32,000 bases of DNA from Mycolicibacterium smegmatis (GCF_001457595.1 NZ_LN831039.1:5100001-5132000); one strand, 5' to 3'. Positions 783-25,306 are shown, numbered from the stretch's first letter. A program made the numbers and translations. The notes: a model not told the origin generated them from the letters alone.

Positions 783-2687
783 TCAACGGGATTGCAAGTC
801 GTACACCGTGACCCCGCCGACCTCGGTCTTGGGGAAGTTCTCCTTGACCCAGTTGGTGATGTCTCCGGCGCTGCCGTGGCGGAAGCCACCGGGGCCGCGC
901 CTGCCCTCGGCGGGTGCGAGGAAGTACCGGACGTCTCCGCGTTCGACGTACTGCTGGAACTGTTCGAGGGTCGGTGAATCGTCTGCGCCCATGAACCCAC
1001 CGATCGCCATGAGCGACTCACCGGTCTTGAGTTCCAGGTCACTGACCATCCACGAGCCCACACTCGCTGCCGCCCACCGGTTGTCGGTGTCGGAGATCAG
1101 CTCGCGAAGCGCCGTGTCGTCGTCTCGTTCGCCGCGGTGCGGCCCTCCGAACCCGAAACCGCCTCCGCGCTGCGGGCCCGCCATGGGGAGCGGCCCGCCG
1201 CTCTGCCCGTTGGCCACGGTCTCCACCGAGTACGCCAGCGTCGAACCCAGGCCCAGCACCACCGCCGCCAACGCCAGCGCCGCGGTGACCTGACCCGGCC
1301 GGTGTGCGCGCAGCGCGAGCAGCACCGCGACGACGACCGATCCGATCAGCACGACCCACCGCAGGGCGGGCCACCAGTCGGGCGTGCGGTTCAGCAGCAC
1401 GAACGCCCACACCCCGGTCAGGCCCATCATGGCGGCCAGCAGCAGCCGGATGCCGACGTGAGAACGCCTGCGCCACAACTCGACCACCGAGATGCCCGCG
1501 AGCGCCGCGACGGCCGGGGCCAGCGCCACGGTGTAGTACGGGTGGATCGTGCCGTCCATGAAACTGAACACCACACCGGTCACCGCCAGCCAACCGCCCC
1601 ACACCAGCAGACCGGCCCGCGTGGCCGAAGTGCGGACAGTGTGCCGGGTCAGCCACAGCAACACGACCAGACCGATCAGTGCCACCGGCAGCAGCCACGC
1701 GACCTCGGTGCCCAAGGCGTCGTTGAACAACCGGCCGATACCGGGGTCGCCGCTGTGGAAGATGCCTCGCGAGCCGCCCCCACCCGGGCCGGGGCCACCT
1801 CCACCAGGGCCGGGGCCACCGCCGAAGCCGGGACCGCCACCGCGGCCGACAATGCGCTCGATGCCGTTGTAGCCGAACGCCAACTGCAGCAGGCTGTTGT
1901 CGGTCGAACCGGCGATGTACGGCCGCGATCCGGCGGGCCACAGCGCCACCAGGGCCAGATACCACCCGGCCGAAACCGCCATGGCGACACCGCCGGCCAG
2001 CAGTATGCCCACGCGCTTGGCCACCGACGCCACGGGCGCGGCGACCAGGAACGCCAGCGCCAGGCCCGGCACGATCAGAAAAGCCTGCAACATCTTGGTG
2101 AGAAACGCGAAACCCAGTGCGCACCCGCACAGCACGACCCATCCCGTCGCGGCGCGGGCCCCGGACGCACCGATGGCGCGCACCATGAAGTAGGCCGCCA
2201 CCACGAGCAGCAGCACCAGCAACGCATCGGGGTTGTTGTAGCGGAACATCACGGTCGCGACGGGCGTGAGCGCGAGCGCGGTGCCCGCCACCAGACCGGC
2301 CACCGGCCCGCTGGTGCGCCGCACCGTCGCGTACAGCACGGCCACGGCCGCGACGCCCATGAGCGCCTCGGGCAGCAGCGTGGTGAACTCGTTGAACCCG
2401 AACAACCTGCCGGACAGGCCCATCGCCCACATCGCGGCGGGCGGCTTGTCGACGGTGATGGCATTGCCCGCGTCAAGGGAACCGAACAGCCAGGCCTTCC
2501 ACGACTGTGTCGCGGCCTGCGCCGCGGCGGCGTAGTAGCTGTTGGCCCAGCCCTTGGACCCCAGGCCCCACAGGTAGAGCACCGCGGTGCCCACCAGCAT
2601 CGCCCAGTAGGCCGGCCGGATCCAGCGCGCCTGGGGCGCCGGGGTTTCGAGGGCCGCCGACGGGCGGGCCTGTTCGACGGTGGTCAT
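783..2687 (-). CDS. Polytopic GT-C glycosyltransferase, PMT_2/ArnT-like (GT39/GT83-like), paralogue A, 634 aa
   Basis: The N-terminal periplasmic-loop motif is ...GWANSYYAAAAQAATQSW...DAGNAITVDKPPAAMW..., followed by about 10 or more hydrophobic helices and a soluble C-terminal domain ending ...GGVTVYDLQSR. It shows strong similarity to the ORF at 4045-5907. The ATG at 2687 lies 3 nt after the upstream gene's stop. Confidence 0.8.
   Translation of the reverse strand: MTTVEQARPSAALETPAPQARWIRPAYWAMLVGTAVLYLWGLGSKGWANSYYAAAAQAATQSWKAWLFGSLDAGNAITVDKPPAAMWAMGLSGRLFGFNEFTTLLPEALMGVAAVAVLYATVRRTSGPVAGLVAGTALALTPVATVMFRYNNPDALLVLLLVVAAYFMVRAIGASGARAATGWVVLCGCALGFAFLTKMLQAFLIVPGLALAFLVAAPVASVAKRVGILLAGGVAMAVSAGWYLALVALWPAGSRPYIAGSTDNSLLQLAFGYNGIERIVGRGGGPGFGGGPGPGGGGPGPGGGGSRGIFHSGDPGIGRLFNDALGTEVAWLLPVALIGLVVLLWLTRHTVRTSATRAGLLVWGGWLAVTGVVFSFMDGTIHPYYTVALAPAVAALAGISVVELWRRRSHVGIRLLLAAMMGLTGVWAFVLLNRTPDWWPALRWVVLIGSVVVAVLLALRAHRPGQVTAALALAAVVLGLGSTLAYSVETVANGQSGGPLPMAGPQRGGGFGFGGPHRGERDDDTALRELISDTDNRWAAASVGSWMVSDLELKTGESLMAIGGFMGADDSPTLEQFQQYVERGDVRYFLAPAEGRRGPGGFRHGSAGDITNWVKENFPKTEVGGVTVYDLQSR
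1764..1847 (-). repeat. Gly/Pro low-complexity tract inside GT-C paralogue A, with two copies of a 21-bp unit
   Basis: Encodes GRGGGPGFGGGPGPGGGGPGPGGGGSRG. The 14-mer gggccggggccacc occurs at 1786-1799 and 1807-1820, a period of 21 nt or 7 codons (unit PGPGGGG). Paralogue B has a shorter, non-repetitive loop at the same position. Confidence 0.85.
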
Positions 2688-2690
2688 GTT

Positions 2691-3989
2691 TCAGTCCTCG
2701 ATCTGTGACGGGGCTTGTGACGGGCGCCGCGTCCGGGCCGGGTGGAACACCCAGCCGCGCAACAGGACGAAGCGGACGACGGTCGCGATCAGGTTGGCCA
2801 CCACCAGGACACCCAGTTCGACCGCGCGGTGCGGCTGCGGCGTCATGATGTGCAGCAGGTAGAGCGACCCGCTCGTGATGGTGAGCGCGATCCCGAAGAC
2901 CGTCAGGCCCTCGAGGTGGTGACGCGCCACGTTGCCGGTTCCCGCGATGCCGAACGTGAAGCGGCGGTTGGCCGCGGTGTTGCCGATCGCGGTGAGCAGC
3001 AGCGCGATCAGGTTGGCGGCCTGTGCGCCGAGCCCGGCGCGCATGAGCGAGAACAGCAACAGGTAGGCCAGCGTGGACACCACACCGATGGCGCCGAACC
3101 GCACGACCTGACGCAGCAGCGATCCCGGTGGCGCGGTGTGGCGCGTGGAACCGAGTTGCGCGGCGATGGTGTTGACGGGGATGGATCCGTTGGCGAAACC
3201 ACGCAGCAGCCGGCCGATGCCCTTGAGGTCGGCGGCCGCGGTGGCGACGATGTCCACCCGGCTGTCCGGATCGTCGACCCAGTCGACGGGCACCTCGTGG
3301 ATGCGCAGACCGCTGCGCTCGGCGAGCACCAGCAGTTCGGTGTCGAAGAACCACCCGGTGTCGACGACATGCGGCAGCAGGCTCTTGGCCACGTCGGCCC
3401 GGATCGCCTTGAACCCGCACTGCGCATCCGAGAATTTCGCGGCCAGAGTGGATTTCAGGATCAGGTTGTAGCAGCGCGAGATGAACTCGCGCTTGGCGCC
3501 GCGGATCACGCGCGAACCGCGGCCCAGCCGCGTGCCGATCGCGAGATCGGAGTGACCCGAGATCAACGGCGCCACAAGCGGTGCGAGCGCCGCGAGATCG
3601 GTGGACAGGTCGACGTCCATGTACGCCAGCACCGGGGCGTCCGACGTCGACCACACGGCGTGCAGCGCACGGCCGCGGCCCTTCTCCTCCAGTCGCACGA
3701 CCCGCACGCCGGGCAGTTCCTCGGCCAGGCGCGCCGCGATCTGCGGCGTGGCGTCGGTGCTCGCGTTGTCGGCGATCGTGATGCGCGTCGGCAGCGCGAA
3801 GTTCTCCTGCAGGTAGCCGTGCAACCGCCGTACCGAATGCGCCAGTGCGGCCTGCTCGTTGAACACCGGCACCACCACGTCGAGCACCGGAACCCCGGCG
3901 GCGCGGGCGACCTGTGCGGCATTGGGGCGCGAGGCGAACCGGAACCGCTGCTCCACCGGTGTCTCGGGATCTACGGCCAACTCTGTCAT
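2691..3989 (-). CDS. Bifunctional GT2 polyprenyl-phosphate glycosyltransferase fused to a C-terminal GtrA-like membrane domain (432 aa)
   Basis: GT2 motifs are present: VVVPVFNEQ, ADNASTD, YMDVDLSTD, QCGFK. The C-terminal roughly 130 aa have four hydrophobic helices and GtrA-type ends (LRQVVRFGAIGVVSTLAYLLLF ... VVRFVLLRGWVF). I chose the ATG at 3989 (MTELAVD) because GGAG lies 5 nt upstream. The track start at 4061 would overlap the upstream gene. Confidence 0.85.
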   Translation of the reverse strand: MTELAVDPETPVEQRFRFASRPNAAQVARAAGVPVLDVVVPVFNEQAALAHSVRRLHGYLQENFALPTRITIADNASTDATPQIAARLAEELPGVRVVRLEEKGRGRALHAVWSTSDAPVLAYMDVDLSTDLAALAPLVAPLISGHSDLAIGTRLGRGSRVIRGAKREFISRCYNLILKSTLAAKFSDAQCGFKAIRADVAKSLLPHVVDTGWFFDTELLVLAERSGLRIHEVPVDWVDDPDSRVDIVATAAADLKGIGRLLRGFANGSIPVNTIAAQLGSTRHTAPPGSLLRQVVRFGAIGVVSTLAYLLLFSLMRAGLGAQAANLIALLLTAIGNTAANRRFTFGIAGTGNVARHHLEGLTVFGIALTITSGSLYLLHIMTPQPHRAVELGVLVVANLIATVVRFVLLRGWVFHPARTRRPSQAPSQIED

Positions 3990-4044
3990 GTCTCCAGATT
4001 TCTGCCGCGGGTTGTGCGGCGCGTGGGGCGAAGCTATGTGCCGG

Positions 4045-5907
4045 CTATGAGTTCGGCGCACGCTGCGTCAGGTCGTAGATGGTGACGTTGTCGATCGTGA
4101 TGGGCGTGAAGTGGGCCTGCACCCACCGCGCGATCTCGGCTGCCTCCTGGCTGCCGGTGGGCGTGTGCCCGGGCCGGGCCCCCATGATGCGGCTGCGGAT
4201 GAAGTAGTGGATCTGCCGTCCGGCCACCAGCTCCTCGAACTCGGCGAGGGTGGGCGCCGGATCGGTGCCGTTGAAGCCGCCGACGGCCATGACCGGTGCA
4301 CCGGTGGCCAACTGGTAACCCGCGGCGTTGCTCGATCCCACGACCGCGGCGGCCCATGTGTAGTTGTCGGCGTCGGCGGCCAGCGTCGCGGTCAGTGCCT
4401 CCCCCGGCGTCGGCGCCGAGAACGGGCCACCGCCGAATCCGCGGGACGGGCCGACCGACGGTATGGCCCCGGTGTGCGGCGCGGCAGCGGTGGCCACGGC
4501 GTACGCGCCCGGTCCGGCGAGGCAGATCAGTACGGTCAGCGCCGCGAGCGGTCGCACCAGACGCGTGTGGACGAGATCGACCACGAGCAGCAGTACCGCG
4601 ACGGCCACGCCCACCACCGCGACCGTGGCACGCAGCCACGGCATCGGGTCGTTGTGGCGCGCCAGCAGCACCGCGGCCAGGATCACGGTCACAGCCACCG
4701 CGGCCGCCATCGCGGTCGCGACACGAATGTCGTTGCGGTGGCGCCACATCGACGTCGCACCGATGCCGATCACGGCGCCGATCGCCGGCGCGAGCGCGAC
4801 CGTGTAGTACGGATGCACGATGCCGTTCATGTAGCTGAACACCACCGCGGTCACCACAAGCCAACCGCCCCAGATGATCAACGCCGCGCGTATGCGGTCG
4901 GTGCGTGGCGCGCGGCGCGTGACGATCAGGCCGGCCACCAGGCACACCAGCGCCGCGGGCAGCAGCCATGCGATGTCGGCGCCCATCTGCCAGCCGAACA
5001 ACCGGCCCGCACCGACGTCGAAGTTGGAGTTGCCCAGCCCGCCGACCTCGGCACCGGTGAGCCGGCCGAAACCGTTGTAGCCCAGCGCCAGTTCGACGAT
5101 GCTGTTGTTCTGAGATCCGCCGATGTAGGGCCGAGAGGCGGCCGGCCACAGTTCGACGAGCACCAGATACCAGCCGCCGCTGACCACCATGGCCGTCCCG
5201 GCCGCGGCGAGGTCGGCGATGCGCGCGCGCAGCGGGCGGTCACCCGCGAGAAGCGCCGCGGCGCAGAACGCCGGCAGGACCAGGAACGCCTGCAACATCT
5301 TGGCGAGGAACCCGAACCCCACCGCGGCGCCCGCGGCGACGAACCACCAACGGGAGGCGTCTTTCTCGATGCCGCGCTGTACGCAGTACGCGGCCACCAC
5401 GAGCAACAGGACCAGCAGGGCATCGGGGTTGTTGAACCGGAAGATCAGCGCGGCCACGGGTGTGAGCGCCAGCACGGCACCAGCCAGCACGGCCGCGTGC
5501 CAACCCGCGGCGCGGCGCACCGCGGCGTAGAGCACCGCGACGGCGGCGATGCCTTCGAGCGCCTGCGGTAGCAGCACGCTCCACGAACTCAGGCCGAACA
5601 ACCGCACCGACAGGTCGATCACCCACAGCGCGGCGGGGGTCTTGTCGACCGTGATCGCGTTGGCCGGGTCGCTCGACCCGAACAGCATCGCGATCCAGTC
5701 ACTGGCGCCGGCCTGGGCCGCGGCGGAGTAGAACGGGTTGGCCCATCCGCTGATCGACAGGTTCCACAGGTACAGCAGTGCCGTCCCGGCCAGCAGCAGG
5801 GGCAGCGCGACGCGTTCGGCCCGGGACCGTGGCCGCACGGATTCAGACGTGCGGGAATCAGGTGCCTCGACCTCGGCGCGTGCGGGATCGCGGGCAACCA
5901 GTGTCAC
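4045..5907 (-). CDS. Polytopic GT-C glycosyltransferase, PMT_2/ArnT-like, paralogue B (about 620 aa)
   Basis: ...GWANPFYSAAAQAGASDW...DPANAITVDKTPAALW...FRFNNPDALLVLLLVVAAY... is colinear with paralogue A, including the C-terminal domain (...IDNVTIYDLTQR). GTG at 5907 follows GAGGA at 6-nt spacing; TTG at 5910 is an alternative start. Confidence 0.8.
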   Translation of the reverse strand: MTLVARDPARAEVEAPDSRTSESVRPRSRAERVALPLLLAGTALLYLWNLSISGWANPFYSAAAQAGASDWIAMLFGSSDPANAITVDKTPAALWVIDLSVRLFGLSSWSVLLPQALEGIAAVAVLYAAVRRAAGWHAAVLAGAVLALTPVAALIFRFNNPDALLVLLLVVAAYCVQRGIEKDASRWWFVAAGAAVGFGFLAKMLQAFLVLPAFCAAALLAGDRPLRARIADLAAAGTAMVVSGGWYLVLVELWPAASRPYIGGSQNNSIVELALGYNGFGRLTGAEVGGLGNSNFDVGAGRLFGWQMGADIAWLLPAALVCLVAGLIVTRRAPRTDRIRAALIIWGGWLVVTAVVFSYMNGIVHPYYTVALAPAIGAVIGIGATSMWRHRNDIRVATAMAAAVAVTVILAAVLLARHNDPMPWLRATVAVVGVAVAVLLLVVDLVHTRLVRPLAALTVLICLAGPGAYAVATAAAPHTGAIPSVGPSRGFGGGPFSAPTPGEALTATLAADADNYTWAAAVVGSSNAAGYQLATGAPVMAVGGFNGTDPAPTLAEFEELVAGRQIHYFIRSRIMGARPGHTPTGSQEAAEIARWVQAHFTPITIDNVTIYDLTQRAPNS

Positions 5908-5958
5908 CAAGTCATCCTCGCGGCGGCAGCTAGGTGTCTCATTGGCCCGCCCTGTGGG

Positions 5959-7542
5959 TCAGCTGTGAGCTGCGCCGGGAAGCCGTACGACGAACCGCGT
6001 CTCACCGGGCCGACTGGTGACGTCGATGACGCCGCCGTGGGCCTTGACCACGGCCGCGACGATCGCGAGACCCAGGCCCGTGCTGCCCTCGCGGCGTGAG
6101 CGCGACGAGTCGCCGCGCGCGAACCGTTCGAACACGTCAGGCAGCAGTTCCGGCGCGATACCGGGTCCGTCGTCGGTGACCGCGACGGTGACCCAGCCCT
6201 CGGCGTCGGCGCTGAGCGCCACGGTGACCGACGTGCCGGGCGGGGTGTGGGTGCGCGCGTTGGCCAGCAGGTTCGCCATGACCTGGTGCAGACGCGCCTC
6301 GTCACCGTCGATCACCACGGCATCCTCGGGCAGGTCGAGCGACCACTTGTGCTGCGGACCGGCGACATGTGCGTCGCTGACGGTGTCGACGACCAACCGG
6401 GACAGCTCGACCCGGTCGCGCTCCAGCGGACGGCCCGCGTCCAGGCGCGCGAGCAGCAGCATGTCCTCGACGAGTTGTGTCATGCGGGACGTCTCGGATT
6501 CGACTCGGCTCATCGCATGCGCGACGTCGTCGGGCAGTTCGCCGCGTTTGCGTTGTGCGAGTTCGGTGTAGCCGCGGATCGCGGCGAGCGGGGTGCGCAG
6601 TTCGTGGCTCGCGTCGGCGACGAACTGGCGCACGCGCGTCTCGCTGGCGTGGCGGGCCGACAGCGCGCTGGCGATGCGGTCGAGCATGCGGTTGAGCGAC
6701 GTGCCGAGCTGGCCGACCTCGGTGTGGGCGACCGCGGGGTCCACCGGCACGATCGGCGTCGGCAACCGCACCTCGCCGCGTTCGAGCTCGAGATCGGCGA
6801 CCTCCCGCGCGGTCGCGGAAACCCTTGCCAGCGGCGCGAACTGACGTCTGATGAGCAGCGTGCCCGCGGTGATCGCGGCGATCAGCGCGACCGCGGCGAT
6901 CACGCAGAACATGCCGAGCACCCACAGCAGCGTGTCGTCGACCACCGAGTTGGGCAGTCCGGTGACGATGGTCTGCGGACCGCCGTGGCGCGGATGCAGG
7001 CCGATGAGGCGGTAGCGTCCGAGGCCGTCGAGGTCGATGGTCTGCGGTTCACGCGTCGCGGGGATCGCGGCCAACTGCCGGGCCGCCGCGGCGCTGACCT
7101 CCTGCCGGTCGCCGTCGGAGGTGATCACGCCTGCGTCGACCGAGCCGTCCGGTGAGACCACGGCACCCACGGTGCGGGCCGCCTGCCCGGGGGCGTTGAG
7201 AAAGCCCGGACCAGGGCCCTGCTCAGGGTCGAACACGCGCAGGTGCCGACCGGGCGGGCCCATCCCCGGCGGGAATAACGGCAGGAAACCTCTTGGTGGT
7301 GGCGGCAATTCGTAGATGGCCGCCGAGCGTCTGCCCGCCTCGAGCAGCTGTTCGTCGAGCTGGTGCATCAGGAAGCGTTGCAACGCGAACTCGGTCGCCA
7401 GGCCGATGCTCAAGCACACCACGGCGAGCAGCGCGACCTGGGTGCCGACGAGCCTGGCACGCAACGGCCAGGTGCGCGGCGACCACCACCGGGTTCCGCC
7501 GACGGCCGCTCGCGGTGCGTCAGCGCGGGGGACGAAGAACAT
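5959..7542 (-). CDS. Sensor histidine kinase (two TM segments flanking a roughly 170-aa extracytoplasmic domain, then HAMP, HisKA, HATPase_c)
   Basis: H-box FVADASHELRTPLAAIRGY. N, G1 and G2 boxes are present (MANLLANARTHT, DDGPGI, GSTGLGLAIV). The hydrophobic segments are LLAVVCLSIGLATEFAL and LLWVLGMFCVIAAVALIAAITAG. The ATG at 7542 overlaps the 3' end of the regulator gene by 23 nt; GTG at 7551 is an alternative. Confidence 0.9.
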   Translation of the reverse strand: MFFVPRADAPRAAVGGTRWWSPRTWPLRARLVGTQVALLAVVCLSIGLATEFALQRFLMHQLDEQLLEAGRRSAAIYELPPPPRGFLPLFPPGMGPPGRHLRVFDPEQGPGPGFLNAPGQAARTVGAVVSPDGSVDAGVITSDGDRQEVSAAAARQLAAIPATREPQTIDLDGLGRYRLIGLHPRHGGPQTIVTGLPNSVVDDTLLWVLGMFCVIAAVALIAAITAGTLLIRRQFAPLARVSATAREVADLELERGEVRLPTPIVPVDPAVAHTEVGQLGTSLNRMLDRIASALSARHASETRVRQFVADASHELRTPLAAIRGYTELAQRKRGELPDDVAHAMSRVESETSRMTQLVEDMLLLARLDAGRPLERDRVELSRLVVDTVSDAHVAGPQHKWSLDLPEDAVVIDGDEARLHQVMANLLANARTHTPPGTSVTVALSADAEGWVTVAVTDDGPGIAPELLPDVFERFARGDSSRSRREGSTGLGLAIVAAVVKAHGGVIDVTSRPGETRFVVRLPGAAHS

Positions 7543-8269
7543 ATCCCGCACCGCGCAGCGTGTGGATCATGGGTTCGCGCCCGCTGTCGATCTTCTTACG
7601 CAGATACGAGACGTACAGTTCGACGATGTTGGAGCGGCCACCGAAGTCATAGCTCCACACCCGGTCGAGGATCTGGGCCTTGCTCAGCACGCGCTTGGCG
7701 TTGCGCATCATGAAGCGCAGCAGTTCGAACTCGGTGGCGGTCAACGCGATCGGATCGCCTCCGCGCGTCACCTCGTGGCTGTCCTCGTCGAGCACCAGAT
7801 CTCCGACGACAATCTTGGCGCCGCCGTCCTCACTGGTCACGCCGGTGCGGCGCAGCAGCGCCCGCAGCCGCAGCACGACCTCTTCGAGGCTGAACGGCTT
7901 GGTGACGTAGTCGTCGCCGCCCGCGGTCAGACCCGCGATGCGGTCCTCCACGGAATCCTTGGCGGTGAGCAGCAGAAGCGGCAGCCCCGGGATCTGCTCG
8001 CGCAGCTTGCGCAACACGTCCAGGCCGCTCATGTCGGGCAGCATGACGTCGAGCACCACGACGTCCGGCGGCGTCTCCCGCGCCGCCGCGATCGCACTCG
8101 CACCGTCGCCCGCGGTGGTGATGTCCCAGCCCTCGTACCGCAGCGCCATGGACACCAGTTCGGCGAGCACGGGTTCGTCGTCGACGACCAGCACCCGGAT
8201 CGGGTTGCCGTCGGCCCGACGCATCACTGCCCGCCCGGTCTCGATCTCGGTGCCGTTCGCCGTTCCCAT
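7520..8269 (-). CDS. OmpR/PhoB-family response regulator
   Basis: The receiver domain has VLVVDDEP, DVVVLDVMLPDMSG and LLLTAKD. The winged-helix output domain has LTATEFELLRFMM...IHTLRGAGYVL. The start is either the ATG at 8269 (MGTANG...) or the ATG at 8224 (MRRADG...). Confidence 0.92.
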   Translation of the reverse strand: MGTANGTEIETGRAVMRRADGNPIRVLVVDDEPVLAELVSMALRYEGWDITTAGDGASAIAAARETPPDVVVLDVMLPDMSGLDVLRKLREQIPGLPLLLLTAKDSVEDRIAGLTAGGDDYVTKPFSLEEVVLRLRALLRRTGVTSEDGGAKIVVGDLVLDEDSHEVTRGGDPIALTATEFELLRFMMRNAKRVLSKAQILDRVWSYDFGGRSNIVELYVSYLRKKIDSGREPMIHTLRGAGYVLRPPR

Positions 8270-8327
8270 TGCACCTATTATTCGCGCGCCCTATGGGGCA
8301 AAACTGTGCGCTTTCTATGTCCCGGCT

Positions 8328-8346
8328 GTGAAACTGCAGGTGCGGT
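8328..8346. promoter_or_regulatory. Direct-repeat element GTGAAAC-TGCAG-GTGCGGT in the regulator / secreted-protein divergent region
   Basis: Read from the sequence. In the first 15 nt it differs at only two positions from the element at 9803-9821 (GTGAAGC-TCCAG-GTGAAAC). A protein-binding function is inferred only. Confidence 0.35.
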
Positions 8347-8386
8347 ACACAGGTCGCTCATAGTCCGCGGTTGCATCCTTGTGGAC

Positions 8387-8845
8387 ATGAGCATGCGACG
8401 TACCGCCGCCGCGGTGGGTATCGCGGTGGCCATCGGCGGCCTGGGCGGCGCGGCGATCTACGCCGCGACCGACGCGGGCAGCTCGGGACCTTTTCGTGGC
8501 GGGCCGGGCGGGCCACCCCGCGCCGCGGGCGTGTGGGGGCCACAACACCGCGAGCATGCCGATCCCGCGACCGTGCGCAGCGAGACCGTCCTCGTCGACA
8601 GCAAAGGCGGCTTCACCACAACGGTCACGCAGACCGGCACCATCACGGCGCTGTCACCGACCACGGTGACCGTCCGCAGCAGCGACGGTTTCACGCAGTC
8701 CTACACGCTGCCGGACCCAGCGCGACCTGGCGCCGCGCCGCCGTTCGGGATCGACGACACCGTGGAGGTGCGCGCGACCCGCGACGGCGAAACGCTCACG
8801 GTCACCAGTATCGGCGAACCGCCTGCTCAGCCGGCAGCGCCGTAA
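8387..8845 (+). CDS. Secreted or membrane-anchored protein of unknown function with a Gly/Pro linker and two beta-strand repeats (152 aa)
   Basis: MSMRRTAAAVGIAVAIGGLGGAAIYAA is a signal or anchor segment. It is followed by GPFRGGPGGPPRAAG and then GTITALSPTTVTVRSSDG and TVEVRATRDGETLTVTSIG. The gene is divergent from the response regulator. The 509-aa track ORF is an upstream GC artefact. Confidence 0.65.
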   Translation: MSMRRTAAAVGIAVAIGGLGGAAIYAATDAGSSGPFRGGPGGPPRAAGVWGPQHREHADPATVRSETVLVDSKGGFTTTVTQTGTITALSPTTVTVRSSDGFTQSYTLPDPARPGAAPPFGIDDTVEVRATRDGETLTVTSIGEPPAQPAAP

Positions 8846-9060
8846 CCGTCGGGCAACTCAACCTCGATGGGCGGCGTCGCAATCGAGGTCTCCAACTCGG
8901 TGGGAGCCCCGGTCTGCGTTGAAGTTTCACCCATTGTCGGCCCAAGGGCCTCATCGAACTGAGCCGAACCGGACAGGCCAGAGCCCCCGAGTACGCCGAA
9001 CGCACCCATGCTCACCGCAGCCGCGGCACCGAGCCCTGCCAATGTGTATTTGATCTTCAT
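8827..9060 (-). CDS. Small secreted Thr/Pro/Glu-rich peptide, paralogue 1 (77 aa)
   Basis: MKIKYTLAGLGAAAAVSMGAFGVLGG is a signal-peptide-like N-terminus. The mature part contains GETSTQTGAPTELETSIATP...PDGY. AGGTGG lies upstream of the ATG. This part is homologous to paralogue 2. Confidence 0.55.
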   Translation of the reverse strand: MKIKYTLAGLGAAAAVSMGAFGVLGGSGLSGSAQFDEALGPTMGETSTQTGAPTELETSIATPPIEVELPDGYGAAG

Positions 9061-9088
9061 CCTGACCACCTGTAGCGATTTTTGGTCA

Positions 9089-9111
9089 GGCCTCCCGTTC
9101 AGCGGGAGGCC
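9089..9111 (-). terminator. GC-rich stem-loop (9-bp stem, 5-nt loop) between small-peptide genes 2 and 1
   Basis: ggcctcccg (9089-9097) pairs perfectly with cgggaggcc (9103-9111). There is no U-tract on the minus-strand RNA, so it would be an I-shaped terminator or attenuator at best. A second copy of cctcccg at 9162-9168 offers an alternative pairing. Confidence 0.35.
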
Positions 9112-9187
9112 CGTCGAACGATCGGCGGCCACCATAAGCAGGGCTCAGCGGGGCTGTCCACCCTCCCGGTCGGCGCGCACGTCTGGA

Positions 9188-9451
9188 TCAGTGCGGTTCA
9201 GCAAACCCTGAAGGCGTGGTCGCGCTCACCGACGGCGTGGCAACGGACGTCTCGGGCGATGTCGGCGCCGTGGTCTCGGTGATGGTCTCACCGGTGGTGA
9301 TGGCGGGTTCGGGCGGCAGCGTTCCGGTGTGGTCAGGTTCGGCGAGCCCCTGGGCAGCGCCGAGACCGACGACCGCCATGGCAAGCGCGCCTGCTGCACC
9401 GAAACTCGCTGCGGCGATCTTGAAACCTCGGCGGTTCTTGGCTGAACTCAC
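9188..9451 (-). CDS. Small secreted Thr/Pro/Glu-rich peptide, paralogue 2 (87 aa)
   Basis: A GTG start at 9451 is preceded by GGAGG with an 8-nt spacer. The protein begins VSSAKNRRGFKIAAASFGAAGALAMAVVGLGAAQG (signal-like) and continues GETITETTAPTSPETSVATP...PSGF. Confidence 0.6.
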   Translation of the reverse strand: MSSAKNRRGFKIAAASFGAAGALAMAVVGLGAAQGLAEPDHTGTLPPEPAITTGETITETTAPTSPETSVATPSVSATTPSGFAEPH

Positions 9452-9502
9452 GTGGTTCACCTCCGATATCTCGGCTTTGACTCCTCGTGCAGGAGTAGCC
9501 GG

Positions 9503-9530
9503 ATGAACCGGAGGCGAAACCGTCGTGAGC
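9503..9530. promoter_or_regulatory. Triple direct repeat ATGAACC-N4-GCGAAAC-N4-GTGAGC upstream of small-peptide gene 2
   Basis: The period is 11 + 11 nt, and it lies 52-79 nt upstream of the GTG at 9451. It is a degenerate version of the element at 9803-9830. Confidence 0.3.
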
Positions 9531-9541
9531 ACAGCGGCGGG

Positions 9542-9775
9542 CTACTTGGCGGCCTCTTCTTCCGAAGGCAACGGAGCCGGGCCCTTGATCGCCGGCACCG
9601 CCATCGGCACTCCGGGCGCCGTGGGCGGCGTCGTCTCGGTGCTCGTCGAACCCATGTTCATCTTCGCTCCGTGTGCCGACGCGGTGCCCTCGGCCAGCAC
9701 GCCTGCGACCCCGAAAACCAACAATGCGGCGCCGCCGGCGCTTGCCGCGAGCAACTTCAGCCTGTTTGTCCCCAT
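9542..9775 (-). CDS. Small secreted Thr/Pro-rich peptide, paralogue 3 (77 aa)
   Basis: The ATG at 9775 is preceded by GGAGGAACTGTC. The protein begins MGTNRLKLLAASAGGAALLVFGVAGVLAEGTASA (signal-like) and continues GSTSTETTPPTAPGVPMAVP. Confidence 0.6.
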   Translation of the reverse strand: MGTNRLKLLAASAGGAALLVFGVAGVLAEGTASAHGAKMNMGSTSTETTPPTAPGVPMAVPAIKGPAPLPSEEEAAK

Positions 9776-9802
9776 GACAGTTCCTCCACTGATCGAGCCT
9801 CG

Positions 9803-9830
9803 GTGAAGCTCCAGGTGAAACCAGTGAATC
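9803..9830. promoter_or_regulatory. Triple direct repeat GTGAAGC-TCCAG-GTGAAAC-CA-GTGAATC upstream of small-peptide gene 3 (shared intergenic region with oppB)
   Basis: Three GTGAA units start at 9803, 9815 and 9824. The element lies 28-55 nt upstream of the ATG at 9775. This architecture is typical of OmpR-family binding sites, but the assignment is inference. Confidence 0.4.
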
Positions 9831-9973
9831 CGGCATTTCTATGACCAGGCTGTACACCCGCTGGCAATTGCCCACACGGCACGGGGAACGCCACACACGG
9901 TGCGTCGTGGCCCGCATCACGGCCTCATGGCGCCACCTCTTCTACCCTTGGCACCCATGGCAGGACGGACGAC

Positions 9974-18962: not shown

Positions 18963-19640
18963 ATGACGACCACACTGACTTCCGATCCGGTTTCCACTGT
19001 GCTGCACGGCCTTCTGCGCGCCGAACAGGACGGCGATGCGGCAGCGTTCGCCGAAGTGGGTGAATTCCCCCTCGACGCAGCTCCGGCCGAGCGGGCCGAA
19101 CTGCTCAAGAACGTGTACATGTCGGTCTCACAGACCGGCGGCGAACTGCTGTACCTGCTCGCCCGCGCCACCGGCGCACGCACCGTCGTGGAGTACGGCA
19201 CGTCGTTCGGGGTATCGACGATCTACCTGGCGAGCGCGGTGCGCGACAACGGTGGCGGCACCGTGATCACGACCGAACTGCAACCCGGCAAAGCCGCTGC
19301 GGCACAACACAGTTTTGACGCCGCCGGCCTCGGCGACCTGATCGACCTGCGCATCGGCGACGCGAGGGACACCCTGGCACAGGTGCCGCGACCGGTGGAC
19401 CTGGTGCTCCTCGACGGCTGGCCGGACCTGGCGCTGCCAGTGCTCGAGGTTCTCGAACCACACCTGCGTGCGGGCACGCTGATCCTGGTGGACGACGTCA
19501 ACCTCGACTTCGGCGGCCGCGATCTGCACGGCGCACTGCTCGACCATCTGGCGACATGCGGGCACTACCGGACGCTGACACTGCCGATCGGTGACGGCAT
19601 CGAGGCGTGCGTGCGCCTCACCGACGGCGCGAAAGGCTAA
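18963..19640 (+). CDS. Class I SAM-dependent O-methyltransferase (family 3, CCoAOMT-like)
   Basis: It has VVEYGTSFGVSTIYLA (a motif I variant), ELQPGKAAAA, IGDARDTL and DLVLLDGW. Confidence 0.8.
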   Translation: MTTTLTSDPVSTVLHGLLRAEQDGDAAAFAEVGEFPLDAAPAERAELLKNVYMSVSQTGGELLYLLARATGARTVVEYGTSFGVSTIYLASAVRDNGGGTVITTELQPGKAAAAQHSFDAAGLGDLIDLRIGDARDTLAQVPRPVDLVLLDGWPDLALPVLEVLEPHLRAGTLILVDDVNLDFGGRDLHGALLDHLATCGHYRTLTLPIGDGIEACVRLTDGAKG

Positions 19641-22270: not shown

Positions 22271-23421
22271 GCGGCCCCCTTGTCGCGGTCGACCAGACGC
22301 AGCAACAACCCCAGCGCGGCACGCGCATCCTCGGCCTCGGCGGCCTCCGAGCGTGCCGTGGCCACGAGCTCGTCGACTGCGGCGGCGGCGAATCCGCCGA
22401 TCCCCAGGTCGTCGAACTCCCCGTCGGCCGGGATGACCGCGATGTCGGTGTGCCGCTCCCACGTGGTGAGCGCGGCGAAAAGCCGGGCGTAGCGGTCCAG
22501 GCACTCGTCGAGCTTGGCCTTGTCGGTCACGGTCAGTGAGCCCGTCAGGGCCAGGCGCACCACGGTGCGTTCCTTGTCGTCCAGCAGGTCCAGGTTGAGG
22601 TCCAGGTCGGCGATGTCGCGGTCGGTGTCGACCGAACGGCGCAGCGTCACGAACCGCCAGCGCCCCACCTTCTCGGACTCCACGCGCACCGCACGGCGCG
22701 CGTCGTTCTCGTCGATGTCGACCACCAGGACGTGACCGGGATCGGATTCGATGTCGTCGTAGTTGGTGACCTCGGGCGAGCCCGAGTACCACACCCGCCC
22801 GCTGCTGCCGACCTCGGTGCGGGAGTGCTTGTCCCCCAACGCCACGTAGTGCACCGCGCCGCGCGCCAGCGCGTCCTCGACGGCGGCCATGCGGATCAGC
22901 GACGGCTTGTTCTTGTCGGGATCGAGGATGTCCACGCCCCCATGCCCCACCAGCACGCGCGTGACGCCGTCGGCGGGCAGATCGGCCAGCACGTCGCCGA
23001 TGAGGTCGGAGGTGGGCGCCTTGGACCGCCACGGCGCCGCGACGATCTGCACGCCCGGGCGGACCTCGTGCACACCCGCGCGGTCGAGCACGACGACGTT
23101 GTCGGGGCGTTCGGCGACGAACAACGCGCTGGTGTACACCGACGACGCGTCGAGCGGATCGTGGTTGCCGGGCAGCAGGTACACCGGTACGCCGATGGCG
23201 CGCATGGCCTCAAGCGACTGGCTGACATCGCGCGGCGCGAGTTGGTTGTGCTCGAACACGTCACCGGACACCACCACGAACTCGGCACCCGTGCGCTTCG
23301 CGATCTCGCCGAGGCGCGCGACGGCCTCACGGCGCGAGGCCGAATACCGTGGCTGCGCCTCACCGTTGAGGAAGTGACGGGTCATCCCGAGCTGCCAGTC
23401 GGCGGTGTGCAGAAAACGCAT
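22267..23421 (-). CDS. SbcD/Mre11-like metallophosphoesterase nuclease (384 aa; Rv1277-like)
   Basis: Calcineurin-fold motifs are present: FLHTADWQLG, VVVSGDVFE, LLPGNHD, LVGHGGV. AAGGAG lies upstream of the ATG at 23421. Confidence 0.88.
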   Translation of the reverse strand: MRFLHTADWQLGMTRHFLNGEAQPRYSASRREAVARLGEIAKRTGAEFVVVSGDVFEHNQLAPRDVSQSLEAMRAIGVPVYLLPGNHDPLDASSVYTSALFVAERPDNVVVLDRAGVHEVRPGVQIVAAPWRSKAPTSDLIGDVLADLPADGVTRVLVGHGGVDILDPDKNKPSLIRMAAVEDALARGAVHYVALGDKHSRTEVGSSGRVWYSGSPEVTNYDDIESDPGHVLVVDIDENDARRAVRVESEKVGRWRFVTLRRSVDTDRDIADLDLNLDLLDDKERTVVRLALTGSLTVTDKAKLDECLDRYARLFAALTTWERHTDIAVIPADGEFDDLGIGGFAAAAVDELVATARSEAAEAEDARAALGLLLRLVDRDKGAA

Positions 23422-24036: not shown

Positions 24037-24593
24037 CTGTTGGTCGCGAGCGTGAGCTCCATGAGCTTGATGGCCATGCCGCACGCGTCGAGACCCGGCG
24101 CCTGCGGGTTGACCCACCAGCCGACCACGCCCGCGGCGTCGCTGGCCACTCCGCACGCGCCGTTGAGGCCGTTGGGTTTCATGACGATCGAATCGACGCC
24201 CGCGATGCGGCGCGACTCGATGGCGTACTGCAGCTGCTGGGCGACCTGACGCTCGTTGTCCAGGCTGCCCTGCTCGTACCAGAAGCGGGTGATGTCCACC
24301 AGGCCCGCGGGATTCGCGGCCTGCCACCGGCACACCGCGCCCACGAACGTGCTCTGGATGTCGAGCGGATCGGCACCGACCGTCTCGGCCAGGATGTCCT
24401 CGGTGAGCACCTCGCACTCCTTGAGCAGGTTGGGGTACTGCCGCTCGGAGTTGTTGTTGCTCGGCCCGCCGCCGGAGCCCTCCTTGGCGGCGGTTCCCTC
24501 GATCGTGCGGCTGCAGCCGGTCAACCCGGCGAGCACCGCCAGGCCGGTGGCGAGCGCAGCGACACTTCTGCGCAGCGTGGTTGGGCGACTCAT
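24033..24593 (-). CDS. lprC: Lipoprotein LprC-like (DUF3558-type, 186 aa)
   Basis: The signal peptide has the lipobox LAGLTGC. Conserved Cys pairs are present. The ATG overlaps the lprB stop (ATGA). Synteny matches Rv1275. Confidence 0.75.
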   Translation of the reverse strand: MSRPTTLRRSVAALATGLAVLAGLTGCSRTIEGTAAKEGSGGGPSNNNSERQYPNLLKECEVLTEDILAETVGADPLDIQSTFVGAVCRWQAANPAGLVDITRFWYEQGSLDNERQVAQQLQYAIESRRIAGVDSIVMKPNGLNGACGVASDAAGVVGWWVNPQAPGLDACGMAIKLMELTLATNS

Positions 24594-25171: not shown

Positions 25172-25235
25172 GCCATGCACTGTAGCGGCAGCCGTGGGCA
25201 CCAACCACCGACAGGCCGATTGACCAGCACTTTCC

Positions 25236-25260: not shown

Positions 25261-25306
25261 ACCGAGGGTGCGCGGTGAACTCAGGATCGTGTGCGAGAGT
25301 AGCGGG

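What the first reader, a model, noticed from the sequence alone, without database searches (positions are those of the whole stretch)
783..8269. Two-component-system-linked Arn/Gtr-like polyprenyl-phosphate glycosylation module with duplicated GT-C transferases
Five same-strand genes are tightly packed. An OmpR-type regulator (7520-8269) is followed by a HAMP/HisKA kinase (5959-7542) that overlaps the regulator's 3' end. Next come GT-C transferase B (4045-5907) and a GT2 enzyme fused to a GtrA-like 4-TM domain (2691-3989). GT-C paralogue A (783-2687) starts 3 nt after the GT2 stop. This parts list matches known lipid-carrier glycosylation systems: a GT2 loads polyprenyl-P-sugar, a GtrA-type protein is implicated in flipping, and a GT-C transfers the sugar outside the membrane. 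Examples are PmrAB-controlled ArnC/ArnEF/ArnT in enterobacteria, phage GtrABC, mycobacterial PpgS/Rv3632/Rv3779 (GalN on arabinogalactan) and Ppm1/Pmt (protein O-mannosylation). Three things are unusual here. Two diverged GT-C paralogues share a single donor synthase. The module is directly linked to a sensor kinase with a large extracytoplasmic domain. From my memory of the M. tuberculosis order (canA Rv1284 adjacent to oppB Rv1283c), the whole block is an insertion between core genes. The sugar, the acceptor and the inducing signal cannot be read from the sequence.
Basis: partly seen in the sequence, partly recalled or inferred. Interest (0 to 1): 0.78.

Follow-up and report, generated by a model that had tools for sequence, protein, structure and literature searches.

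The report
PhoP-like regulator controlling envelope glycosylation genes
This is an unstudied Mycolicibacterium smegmatis gene block (MSMEG_4986-4990), conserved across Actinomycetota, in which a sensor/regulator pair related to the tuberculosis virulence regulator PhoP appears to switch on enzymes that load a sugar onto a lipid carrier and attach it to an unknown target outside the cell membrane.

Summary
The genes are an OmpR-type regulator, a HAMP/HisKA kinase, a GT2 fused to a GtrA/DPMS membrane domain, and two ArnT-like GT-C paralogues (46% identical).

The window is M. smegmatis (99.3% nucleotide identity). The block is MSMEG_4986-4990, and no paper in the searchable library discusses it.

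New findings:
1. The module is not a local island. Regulator-kinase-(GT-C)-GT2::GtrA-(GT-C) recurs from Mycobacterium to Streptomyces, Actinoplanes, Frankia and Kineococcus. The GT-C duplication is old.
2. The regulator's closest solved relative is M. tuberculosis PhoP (about 58% identity).
3. PhoP-type TCACAG direct repeats with an 11-bp period sit immediately upstream of the regulator, GT-C B, GT2::GtrA and a divergent membrane-anchored OB-fold protein. All six hits in the 32 kb window lie within 4034-9854: five immediately upstream of these four genes, the sixth before a neighbouring small secreted-protein gene. The same placement holds in most of 83 related loci.

This indicates direct control of the glycosylation genes by the two-component system.

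Sugar, acceptor and signal remain unknown. The "insertion" reading is not supported; loss in the M. tuberculosis lineage is more likely.

I rate it a new variant of a known kind, of moderate to high interest.

The parts
783..2687 (-). GT-C glycosyltransferase A (MSMEG_4986, 634 aa), ArnT/PMT_2-type with a YkcB_C C-terminal domain. It starts 3 nt after the GT2::GtrA stop.
   Evidence: Pfam PMT_2 100.3 bits and YkcB_C 80 bits. It is 46% identical to GT-C B. It keeps all 91 family-wide conserved columns. Locus tag.
2691..3989 (-). GT2 polyprenyl-phosphate sugar synthase fused to a 4-TM GtrA/DPMS domain (MSMEG_4987, 432 aa).
   Evidence: Pfam Glycos_transf_2 and GtrA_DPMS_TM. Best solved relatives are Pyrococcus DPMS 5MLZ (E = 9.3e-10) and ArnC. 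It is 429/432 identical to the M. smegmatis mc2 155 protein. Start codon fixed by homologues.
4034..4049 (-). PhoP-type direct-repeat box (TCATAGCCGGCACATAG) 45 nt upstream of the GT2::GtrA start. It overlaps the GT-C B stop codon.
   Evidence: Motif scan. A box stands at the equivalent place in 64 hits across 83 loci. Class consensus.
4045..5907 (-). GT-C glycosyltransferase B (MSMEG_4988, 620 aa), ArnT/PMT_2-type with a YkcB_C domain.
   Evidence: Pfam PMT_2 106.6, YkcB_C 97.2 and PMT 29.4 bits. ArnT is the only solved sequence relative. AF2 model has pLDDT 64.6 and pTM 0.67. Best Foldseek match is ArnT 5F15, E = 2.6e-10.
5952..5967 (-). PhoP-type direct-repeat box (TCACAGCTGACCCACAG) 45 nt upstream of the GT-C B start. 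It overlaps the last codons and stop of the kinase gene.
   Evidence: Conserved upstream of the first GT-C in 24 hits across loci. Consensus.
5959..7542 (-). Sensor histidine kinase (MSMEG_4989, 527 aa): TM1, a sensor domain of about 150 aa, TM2, HAMP, HisKA, HATPase_c.
   Evidence: Pfam and hydropathy. Outside Mycobacteriales the sensor part is 19-30% identical and the cytoplasmic part 58-65%.
7520..8269 (-). OmpR/PhoB-family response regulator (MSMEG_4990, 249 aa), a paralogue of M. tuberculosis PhoP.
   Evidence: Pfam. Best solved hit is M. tuberculosis PhoP at 276.9 bits, against PrrA at 190.4. It is 58% identical to PhoP residues 24-250. The recognition helix is conserved.
8304..8330 (-). 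Three tandem TCACAG-type boxes with an 11-bp period (CACAGCCGGGACATAGAAAGCGCACAG). They lie upstream of a -10-like AATAAT (8277-8282), 7 nt before the regulator's ATG. This is the probable autoregulated, possibly leaderless, promoter.
   Evidence: It is the only match to the three-box pattern in 32 kb. The architecture is conserved upstream of the regulator in most loci. Sequence.
8348..8363 (+). Oppositely oriented box pair (CACAGGTCGCTCATAG) 24 nt upstream of the divergent OB-fold protein gene.
   Evidence: Minus-oriented boxes between this gene and the regulator recur in mycobacteria, Pseudonocardiales and Frankia.
8387..8845 (+). Divergent gene for a membrane-anchored exported protein (MSMEG_4991, 152 aa; DUF5666-like) with a C-terminal OB-fold-like beta barrel. 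It is a probable sixth component.
   Evidence: One N-terminal TM segment. Weak DUF5666/Big_2 hits. UniRef names relatives DUF5666. In the AF2 model residues 60-145 are all-beta, mostly with pLDDT above 90. Weak Foldseek hits to the OB folds CusF, RPA14/32, SilF and YgiW. It lies divergent to the regulator in 24 loci.
8827..9775 (-). Three tandem paralogous genes for small secreted Thr/Pro-rich proteins: MSMEG_4992-4994 at 8827-9060, 9188-9451 and 9542-9775. Their association with the module is possible but weak.
   Evidence: ORFs and sequences. They are mutually paralogous and conserved at this position only in mycobacterial loci. No Pfam family. Gene calls.
9839..9854 (-). Sixth box pair (TACAGCCTGGTCATAG), about 65 nt upstream of the first small Thr/Pro-rich gene. 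It is not seen at this place in other species.
   Evidence: Its absence in other mycobacterial loci follows.

Best explanation
The block is an inducible envelope glycosylation module that uses a lipid carrier. It is controlled by its own two-component system, which is a paralogue of M. tuberculosis PhoPR.

Proposed steps:
1. The kinase (MSMEG_4989) senses an unknown extracytoplasmic cue and phosphorylates the regulator (MSMEG_4990).
2. The regulator binds tandem TCACAG-type repeats with an 11-bp period. These replace the -35 region of at least four promoters: its own (probably leaderless), GT-C B, GT2::GtrA with the translationally coupled GT-C A, and the divergent membrane-anchored OB-fold protein.
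3. The GT2::GtrA enzyme transfers a sugar from a nucleotide sugar to polyprenyl phosphate at the inner face of the membrane.
4. After translocation, the two ArnT-like GT-C paralogues transfer that sugar to extracytoplasmic acceptors. The two probably have different acceptors or sites.

Status of the steps:
- Shown here: gene content, family membership, paralogy, phylum-wide linkage, and box placement.
- Inferred: who binds the boxes, activation rather than repression, the lipid carrier, and the transfer step.
- Unknown: sugar, acceptor and signal.
For: Family membership:
- All domains score above the Pfam cut-offs.
- The GT2 domain is nearest to DPMS and ArnC.
- The GT-C is nearest to ArnT by sequence and by fold.
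- Both GT-C paralogues keep all 91 family-conserved columns, including the first-loop D...VDK that aligns with ArnT's EK.

Linkage:
- Regulator-kinase-(GT-C)-GT2::GtrA-(GT-C) recurs in about 60 of 83 loci, from Mycobacteriaceae to Streptomyces, Actinoplanes, Frankia and Kineococcus. Regulators there are 69-95% identical to the window's; two Thermoleophilia loci carry a different regulator, 42-45% identical.
- Natural single-polypeptide fusions GT2+GtrA+PMT_2+YkcB_C exist.

Regulation:
- The regulator's best solved relative is M. tuberculosis PhoP.
- PhoP binds TCACAG(N5)TCACAG (PMC4832192; PMC4620462).
- Base-contacting residues N, E, Y and Y are conserved in all GT-linked regulators.
- The two-box pattern occurs 6 times in the 32 kb window against 0.54 expected. 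All six lie within 4034-9854, five of them immediately upstream of the regulator, GT-C B, GT2::GtrA and the OB-fold gene, and one before the Thr/Pro-rich genes.
- In 1.59 Mb of related loci, 180 of 235 hits lie within 250 nt upstream of these same genes.
- A third box that the search did not impose appears in the consensus of each promoter class.
Against: - No experiment on this locus was found.
- In published M. smegmatis arrays, slow growth raised the regulator 2.26-fold and the OB-fold gene 4.52-fold. The three GT genes stayed at 0.98-1.26 (PMC2799521 Dataset S1). No co-induction was therefore seen under that condition. MSMEG_4991 and 4993 also depend on SigF (PMC4694148).
- The box equals the PhoP motif and resembles the MtrA motif (the latter from my memory). 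Another regulator could occupy it.
- The first box of two promoters overlaps the end of the upstream coding sequence.
- The GT-C model is only of medium confidence (pLDDT 64.6).
- No neighbouring gene in any of the 83 loci points to the sugar.
Confidence: 0.7

Rival explanations
1. Protein O-glycosylation system. The two GT-C enzymes glycosylate secreted or membrane-anchored proteins. Candidate acceptors are the co-located Thr/Pro-rich small secreted proteins (MSMEG_4992-4994) and/or the OB-fold protein (MSMEG_4991). This would make it a second, inducible Pmt-like pathway. It refines the acceptor within the main model rather than replacing the model.
For: - The GT-C proteins belong to PMT_2, and B also passes the PMT model (29.4 bits against a cut-off of 22.7).
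- Three tandem secreted proteins with Thr/Pro-rich tails lie next to the module in mycobacteria.
- A box pair precedes the first of them in the window.
- The module is conserved in lineages with very different wall polymers. That favours an acceptor class common to all of them, such as proteins.
Against: - The Thr/Pro-rich genes occur only in mycobacterial loci, and the box before them is not conserved.
- ArnT, a lipid-modifying enzyme, matches far better than yeast Pmt1/2/4 (E = 2.6e-10 against 0.03-0.07, with partial alignments).
- GT-C A does not hit the PMT model.
Confidence: 0.25
2. The neighbouring two-component system does not control the GT genes. The boxes would be bound by another regulator with the same specificity, either the bona fide PhoP or MtrA. 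The adjacency would then be conserved synteny without a regulatory meaning.
For: - The box is indistinguishable from the published PhoP motif.
- The arrays show regulator induction without GT induction.
- Some loci keep the box before GT2::GtrA with no two-component system within 10 kb (L013, L038, L039, L074).
- In Amycolatopsis the regulator gene is not adjacent, yet the boxes remain.
Against: - The boxes stand in front of the regulator gene itself in nearly every locus (82 hits). That is the usual signature of autoregulation.
- The recognition helix of the GT-linked regulators is almost invariant across the phylum, in parallel with the box.
- GT2::GtrA paralogues in Streptomyces that lack the two-component system and sit in a different context also lack the boxes (L041, L044, L045, L059, L076, L078).
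Confidence: 0.12
3. Arn-like charge modification. The module would add an amino sugar (as with Ara4N, or GalN via PpgS/Rv3779) to an anionic envelope component, giving resistance to cationic antimicrobials, by analogy with PmrAB-Arn.
For: - ArnT is the closest solved GT-C, and ArnC is among the closest GT2 enzymes.
- Control by an OmpR-type two-component system parallels PmrAB.
Against: - The equivalog models are far below cut-off: ArnC 26.9 against 529 bits, and PpgS 29.3 against 370 bits.
- No ArnA/B/D-type sugar-tailoring gene or deacetylase lies in the window or recurs in the 83 loci.
Confidence: 0.07
4. A recently acquired genomic island inserted between oppB and canA.
For: - From my memory of M. 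tuberculosis H37Rv, Rv1283c (oppB) and Rv1284 (canA) are adjacent.
- The module is not listed among the top hits from slow-growing species.
Against: - It occupies the same opp-module-canA position in many Mycolicibacterium species.
- Identity falls with taxonomic distance across Actinomycetota.
- GC content is 0.69-0.72 against 0.65-0.73 elsewhere in the window.
- There are no tRNA genes, integrase or mobility genes.
- The "plasmid" hits are megabase replicons or mislabelled chromosome pieces; the one inspected carries ruvABC.
Confidence: 0.05

Closest known systems
PmrAB (BasRS)-controlled ArnC/ArnEF/ArnT lipid A modification in enterobacteria
   Same: An OmpR-family two-component system sits next to and controls a GT2 that charges a polyprenyl phosphate and a GT-C that transfers the sugar outside the membrane. 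ArnT is the closest solved structure to GT-C B. ArnC is among the closest solved GT2 enzymes.
   Different: There are no sugar-tailoring genes (ArnA/B/D) and no separate ArnE/F. The host has no lipid A. The GT2 is fused to a GtrA/DPMS membrane domain. There are two GT-C paralogues. The regulator is PhoP(Mtb)-like, not PmrA-like. The ArnC equivalog model scores 26.9 against a cut-off of 529.
M. tuberculosis PhoPR (Rv0757/Rv0758)
   Same: PhoP is the regulator's best solved relative (276.9 bits). The base-contacting residues N212, E215, Y217 and Y220 and the wing T-x-R-G are conserved. The DNA motif is the same: TCACAG direct repeats with an 11-bp period.
   Different: Identity is only about 58%, and every GT-linked regulator in the phylum is equally distant at 52-60%. 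It is therefore a paralogue, not the orthologue. From my knowledge, PhoPR is not adjacent to glycosyltransferase genes and controls lipid and ESX-1 genes. Ser216 is replaced by Leu.
Three-component lipid-carrier glycosylation systems (phage GtrABC; CsbB/GtcA/YfhO and YkcC/YkcB of Bacillus)
   Same: The logic is the same: GT2 synthase, GtrA-family membrane protein, GT-C transferase. The C-terminal domain of both GT-C proteins is the YkcB_C family. The acceptor of YkcB is likewise unknown (papers listed).
   Different: Here the GT2 and GtrA parts are one polypeptide. The GT-C is PMT_2/ArnT-like rather than GtrC or YfhO-like. There is no phage context. It has a dedicated two-component system with its boxes.
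Mycobacterial PpgS/Rv3632/Rv3779 (GalN on arabinogalactan), Ppm1/Pmt, and Rv0539-Rv0541c (methylthioxylose on LAM)
   Same: The same host family and the same two-step chemistry through polyprenyl-phosphate sugars, with GT-C transferases.
   Different: The PpgS equivalog model scores 29.3 against a cut-off of 370. None of those systems is linked to a two-component system or has paired GT-C paralogues (my knowledge). The present module extends to lineages without arabinogalactan or LAM.
Pyrococcus furiosus dolichyl-phosphate mannose synthase (PDB 5MLZ)
   Same: It is the best solved hit of the GT2 part (E = 9.3e-10). The architecture matches: a cytoplasmic GT2 domain followed by four TM helices of Pfam family GtrA_DPMS_TM.
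   Different: The similarity is distant. The sugar specificity cannot be transferred from it.
Two-component systems with a divergent periplasmic OB-fold partner (ygiW next to qseBC; cusF with cusRS)
   Same: A small exported OB-fold protein gene lies divergent to the regulator gene and carries its boxes.
   Different: The fold matches are weak (E about 1e-2, TM 0.3-0.6 on the target). The protein is membrane-anchored, and no metal-binding motif was tested.

Membership tests
GT-C glycosyltransferases of the ArnT/PMT_2 type (CAZy GT39/GT83 neighbourhood) | Match to the PMT_2 profile above the curated cut-off | tested here: met
   A scores 100.3 bits and B 106.6 bits against a cut-off of 26.1.
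GT-C glycosyltransferases of the ArnT/PMT_2 type (CAZy GT39/GT83 neighbourhood) | Multi-pass membrane domain with conserved acidic residue(s) in the first extracytoplasmic loop | tested here: met
   About 12-13 predicted TM helices. D72/D80 and D80-K81/D88-K89 (A/B numbering) are at least 95% conserved in 70 sequences. VDK aligns with ArnT's F-E-K.
GT-C glycosyltransferases of the ArnT/PMT_2 type (CAZy GT39/GT83 neighbourhood) | Fold similar to a solved GT-C enzyme | tested here: met
   Foldseek finds ArnT 5F15 at E = 2.6e-10 with TM 0.50/0.56, followed by OST/AglB, AftA, AftD and EmbB. The model is of medium confidence only (pLDDT 64.6).
GT-C glycosyltransferases of the ArnT/PMT_2 type (CAZy GT39/GT83 neighbourhood) | Uses a polyprenyl-phosphate sugar donor | not testable with these tools
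   Needs an enzyme assay.
Polyprenyl-phosphate glycosyltransferases (GT2; DPMS/GtrB/ArnC type) | GT2 domain with a DxD motif and the D-A-Q-C-G-F-K acceptor-loop motif, followed by membrane helices | tested here: met
   PF00535 scores 79.7 bits. YMDVDLS and FSDAQCGFKA are invariant in 10 homologues. There are 4 TM helices of PF04138. The best solved relatives are DPMS and ArnC.
Arn (Ara4N) pathway | ArnC/ArnT orthology plus ArnA/B/D sugar-tailoring genes and a lipid A acceptor | tested here: not met
   The ArnC equivalog scores 26.9 against 529 bits. GT-C B is only 18% identical to ArnT. No tailoring genes occur in the window or in the 83 loci.
PpgS/Rv3632/Rv3779 GalN system | PpgS equivalog score | tested here: not met
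   NF058614 scores 29.3 against a cut-off of 370.
Protein O-mannosyltransferase (Pmt, GT39) | Match to the PMT profile and a Pmt-like fold | tested here: inconclusive
   B scores 29.4 bits (cut-off 22.7) and A has no hit. Yeast Pmt1/2/4 match only about 265-278 alignment columns at E = 0.03-0.07.
OmpR/PhoB-type two-component system | Receiver plus winged-helix regulator; HAMP-HisKA-HATPase_c kinase; adjacent, overlapping genes | tested here: met
   The genes overlap by 23 nt.
M. tuberculosis PhoP orthologue | Orthologue-level identity and shared genomic context | tested here: not met
   The window's regulator is 58% identical to PhoP; GT-linked regulators from all taxa are 52-60% identical to it. 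The context differs. No NCBIfam equivalog cut-off is reached.
M. tuberculosis PhoP-type DNA recognition | Conserved base-contacting residues and TCACAG direct repeats with an 11-bp period at target promoters | tested here: met
   N, E, Y and Y are conserved, with V to I and S to L changes. Boxes are documented. Actual binding was not tested.
Phage Gtr serotype-conversion cassette or mobile island | Phage or mobility genes, a tRNA attachment site, atypical composition | tested here: not met
   No tRNA genes. Composition is ordinary. The neighbours are opp, canA and cysDN.

The most novel reading that the evidence does not exclude
This module is the ancestral, phylum-wide partner of the PhoP-type regulator lineage. 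It would be a stress-inducible pathway that glycosylates an extracytoplasmic acceptor common to all Actinomycetota. Candidates are secreted or membrane-anchored proteins (such as the co-regulated OB-fold protein), peptidoglycan, or a shared membrane lipid.

On this reading, M. tuberculosis PhoPR is a paralogue of this regulator lineage in an organism whose genome lacks the module. It was rewired to virulence lipids and kept the same DNA motif. In species that hold both systems, the two would cross-talk at TCACAG boxes.
Probability: 0.25. Interest if true: 0.8.

Novelty: new variant of a known kind. Interest (0 to 1): 0.6.

Why it matters
- It would add an unknown, regulated glycosylation pathway to the envelope biology of mycobacteria, Streptomyces and many other actinomycetes.
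- It sits in a genetically tractable model organism (M. smegmatis MSMEG_4986-4991), so every step proposed here can be tested directly.
- It gives the PhoP virulence regulator of M. tuberculosis a close, widely conserved relative with a compact and readable regulon. That helps in studying how PhoP-type specificity and signalling evolved.
- It raises the possibility of cross-regulation in non-tuberculous pathogens of the M. fortuitum group, which carry the module.
- Its apparent absence from M. tuberculosis would mark an envelope difference between fast-growing and pathogenic species.

Tried and rejected
**Literature**
- No paper in the library mentions MSMEG_4986-4990 in its main text.
- My first guess of neighbouring locus tags, MSMEG_4966-4971, was wrong. 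Those are a LuxR-type system.
- The correct tags came from Dataset S1 of PMC2799521.
- The held supplements of the transcription-start-site paper (PMC6448022) contain none of these tags.

**Sugar identity**
- NCBIfam equivalogs (AglJ, PpgS, ArnC and others) are all far below cut-off.
- No sugar-nucleotide gene recurs near the module in 83 loci.

**Generic scans**
- The promoter and terminator scans were uninformative.
- Rfam and tRNA scans found nothing.

**Mobility**
- The plasmid hits are megabase replicons or mislabelled chromosome pieces.

**Further regulon members**
- Boxes elsewhere in the loci lead only to lineage-specific genes. Examples are a PP2C-like phosphatase in Amycolatopsis and a small protein in Actinomycetospora.

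**Sensor domain**
- It is too divergent to suggest a ligand.
- Both structure-prediction jobs had already gone to GT-C B and the OB-fold protein, so the sensor was not modelled.

**Distribution**
- The genome scan stopped at 600 candidate stretches, so presence or absence in slow-growing mycobacteria could not be settled.

Full report
**1. Observation**

Start codons are fixed by near-identical gene calls on public contigs. Pfam gives hits well above the curated cut-offs:
- Regulator 7520-8269: Response_reg + Trans_reg_C.
- Kinase 5959-7542: HAMP + HisKA + HATPase_c.
- GT-C B 4045-5907 and GT-C A 783-2687: PMT_2 + YkcB_C.
- 2691-3989: Glycos_transf_2 + GtrA_DPMS_TM.

The junctions are as described:
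- Regulator/kinase overlap: 23 nt.
- Kinase to GT-C B gap: 51 nt.
- GT-C B to GT2::GtrA gap: 55 nt.
- GT2::GtrA to GT-C A gap: 3 nt.

GT-C A and B are 46% identical end to end. Hydropathy puts about 150 residues of the kinase outside the membrane, which is an ordinary size.

**2. Source and locus tags**

- The window is 99.3% identical in DNA to Mycolicibacterium smegmatis genomes over the 14 kb compared.
- GT2::GtrA is 429/432 identical to the mc2 155 protein.
- Dataset S1 of PMC2799521 gives the tags:

| Tag | Gene |
|---|---|
| MSMEG_4985 | canA |
| MSMEG_4986 | GT-C A |
| MSMEG_4987 | GT2::GtrA |
| MSMEG_4988 | GT-C B |
| MSMEG_4989 | kinase |
| MSMEG_4990 | regulator |
| MSMEG_4991-4994 | hypothetical proteins |
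| MSMEG_4995 | oppB |

- A full-text search for MSMEG_4986-4991 found only two papers, both mentioning only 4991. Other searches found no characterised orthologue.

**3. The enzymes**

- GT2 part: the best solved relatives are Pyrococcus dolichyl-phosphate mannose synthase and ArnC. Its C-terminal four helices belong to the same Pfam family as the DPMS membrane domain and GtrA. A flippase role is therefore possible but not implied.
- Sugar: no NCBIfam equivalog cut-off is approached (AglJ 56.6/325, PpgS 29.3/370, ArnC 26.9/529). The sugar cannot be named.
- GT-C B: its only solved sequence relative is ArnT. A medium-confidence AlphaFold model (pLDDT 64.6, pTM 0.67) matches ArnT best (E = 2.6e-10). 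Oligosaccharyltransferases and mycobacterial arabinosyltransferases follow. Yeast Pmt enzymes match only partially.
- Both paralogues keep all 91 columns that are at least 95% conserved in 70 family members. These include the first-loop D...VDK that aligns with ArnT's E-K. Both therefore look catalytically competent.

**4. Distribution**

- A scan of one genome per species returned at least 594 relatives of GT2::GtrA, and the best 80 were kept.
- tblastn with the window's proteins shows regulator-kinase-(GT-C)-GT2::GtrA-(GT-C) across many lineages: Mycobacteriaceae, Nocardia, many Pseudonocardiales, Streptomyces, Actinoplanes and relatives, Frankia, Kineococcus, Jatrophihabitans and Thermoleophilia.
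- Outside Mycobacteriales, regulators are 69-78% and GT2::GtrA 59-70% identical to the window's. The two Thermoleophilia loci carry a more distant regulator (42-45%).
- Streptomyces has one GT-C, downstream. Mycobacteria and Pseudonocardiales have two.
- A neighbour-joining tree places the upstream and downstream copies in separate clades. Each clade holds both mycobacteria and Pseudonocardiales, so the duplication is old (no bootstrap was done).
- At 50% clustering, 1,338 representative proteins match GT2::GtrA at E <= 1e-30. Those I could name are all Actinomycetota.
- Several representatives are single polypeptides joining GT2(+GtrA) to PMT_2+YkcB_C. This supports functional coupling, although read-through artefacts cannot be excluded.

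**5. The "insertion" claim**

- Many Mycolicibacterium species have the same opp-module-canA order.
- Composition is ordinary.
- There are no tRNA or mobility genes.
- "Plasmid" hits are megabase replicons or mislabelled chromosome pieces.
- The adjacency of oppB and canA in M. tuberculosis rests on my memory. If correct, loss there is more economical than gain here.

**6. Regulation, the main new result**

*Relationship to PhoP*
- The regulator's best solved relative by a wide margin is M. tuberculosis PhoP (276.9 bits, against 190.4 for PrrA).
- Identity is 58%. All GT-linked regulators in the phylum are similarly distant at 52-60%. They form a paralogous lineage.
- PhoP binds TCACAGC direct repeats with a 4-bp spacer through N212, V213, E215, S216, Y217 and Y220 (PMC4832192; ChIP consensus TCACAG(N5)TCACAG, PMC4620462).
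- The GT-linked regulators carry N-[VI]-V-E-L-Y-[IV]-S-Y almost invariantly.

*Boxes in the window*
- Aligning regulator-upstream regions showed tandem TCACAG-like boxes with an 11-bp period in all lineages.
- A loose two-box pattern derived from those regions occurs six times in the 32 kb window against 0.54 expected from shuffles.
- All six lie between 4034 and 9854:
  - three overlapping boxes before the regulator (8304-8330);
  - one pair 45 nt before GT-C B (5952-5967);
  - one pair 45 nt before GT2::GtrA (4034-4049);
  - one pair in opposite orientation before the divergent gene at 8387 (8348-8363);
  - one pair at 9839-9854.

*Boxes in related loci*
- In 1.59 Mb of related loci, 180 of 235 hits lie just upstream of the regulator (82), GT2::GtrA (64), the first GT-C (24), the kinase (6) or the divergent gene (4).
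- Each promoter class shows a third box that the search did not impose.
- Streptomyces GT2::GtrA paralogues in another context, without the two-component system, have no boxes.

*Promoter reading*
- The regulator's promoter has a -10-like AATAAT 7 nt before the ATG, which suggests a leaderless transcript (inference).
- I read this as direct control of three or four transcription units by the neighbouring regulator.

**7. Extra parts**

- The divergent gene (8387-8845, MSMEG_4991) encodes a membrane-anchored protein. Its C-terminal 85 residues fold confidently into a beta barrel that weakly resembles OB folds such as CusF, RPA14/32, SilF and YgiW.
- It lies divergent to the regulator in 24 loci from mycobacteria, Pseudonocardiales and Frankia.
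- Three small paralogous secreted Thr/Pro-rich proteins (MSMEG_4992-4994) follow. They are confined to mycobacteria, and their box is not conserved.

**8. Published expression data**

- Slow against fast growth raised the regulator 2.26-fold, MSMEG_4991 4.52-fold and MSMEG_4993 3.98-fold. The GT genes stayed at 0.98-1.26.
- MSMEG_4991 and 4993 fall in a sigF mutant.
- The inducing condition for the GT genes has therefore not been met in those experiments, or control is more complex than proposed.

**9. Mechanism and verdict**

- The best reading is lipid-carrier glycosylation of an extracytoplasmic target, switched by a PhoP-paralogue two-component system (confidence 0.7).
- Shown: parts, families, linkage and box placement.
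- Inferred: who binds the boxes, the direction of control, and the chemistry.
- Unknown: sugar, acceptor and signal.
- The module works like PmrAB-Arn and like the Gtr/CsbB-YfhO/PpgS-Rv3779 systems. It fails the membership tests for each of those specific pathways.
- It is a new variant of a known kind. It is ancient, widespread and unstudied, and it sits in a model organism.

Noticed in passing
window 8827-9060, 9188-9451, 9542-9775 (minus strand): Three tandem paralogous genes encode 77-87 aa secreted proteins with Thr/Pro-rich tails (MSMEG_4992-4994; 4994 is annotated "flagella membrane glycoprotein 1B, putative"). They are conserved at this position only in mycobacteria. They have the composition typical of O-glycosylated mycobacterial proteins.
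   Followed up: partly
window 5952-5967 and 4034-4049: The first box of the GT-C B promoter covers the kinase's last two codons and stop (CAC AGC TGA). The first box of the GT2::GtrA promoter covers the GT-C B stop (TCA TAG). Regulatory and coding constraints therefore overlap.
   Followed up: partly
window about 1735-1820 (GT-C A residues about 290-318); also GT-C A residues about 505-520, GT-C B about 483-494, MSMEG_4991 residues about 33-47, kinase residues about 83-120: Gly/Pro-rich stretches recur in every extracytoplasmic part of the system. One is a 28-residue GRGGGPGFGGGPGPGGGGPGPGGGGSRG insertion specific to GT-C A. Another is a conserved G-P-x-R-G-(G)-F-G-G-G segment between the last TM helix and the YkcB_C domain of both GT-C proteins. 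This may be only a high-GC compositional effect.
   Followed up: no
P0422, P0518, P0530, P0486 (metagenome proteins): Single polypeptides join GT2 (with or without GtrA) to PMT_2+YkcB_C. They are either natural fusions of the synthase and the transferase or read-through gene calls across the 3-nt junction.
   Followed up: partly
L013, L014, L018, L019 (Mycobacterium/Mycolicibacterium): Some mycobacteria carry a second type of module: GT2::GtrA (69-76% identical) plus one GT-C from a different clade. Where present, the regulator and kinase are divergent or downstream. Boxes still precede GT2::GtrA in L013 and L014.
   Followed up: partly
L028, L030, L034, L035 (Amycolatopsis): The regulator gene is missing from its usual place, so the OB-fold gene abuts the kinase. 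The boxes before the kinase, GT-C B and GT2::GtrA remain. In L028 and L034 a further box precedes a PP2C-like phosphatase gene downstream.
   Followed up: partly
L041, L044, L045, L059, L076, L078 (Streptomyces): A GT2::GtrA paralogue lies in a different context, with a sigma/anti-sigma-like gene upstream and an unrelated multi-pass membrane protein downstream. It has no two-component system and no boxes.
   Followed up: no
L086 (Tsukamurella tyrosinosolvens "plasmid 21", NZ_LR134463.1): A record labelled as a plasmid carries ruvABC and other housekeeping genes beside a GT2::GtrA + GT39 pair. It is probably a chromosome fragment.
   Followed up: no
window 19637-23421 (minus strand): A large AAA/SMC-like ATPase ORF (the listed 1131-aa frame probably starts too far upstream and overlaps its neighbour) lies beside a calcineurin-like phosphoesterase (384 aa). 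They look like an SbcCD-type pair.
   Followed up: no
window 24581-28932 (plus), 29695-30633 (plus), 30637-31983 (minus): Two adjacent ABC exporter genes with fused membrane and ATPase domains, an AIM24/DUF2510 protein, and a P-type ATPase cut by the window end. These are ordinary neighbours, unrelated to the finding.
   Followed up: no
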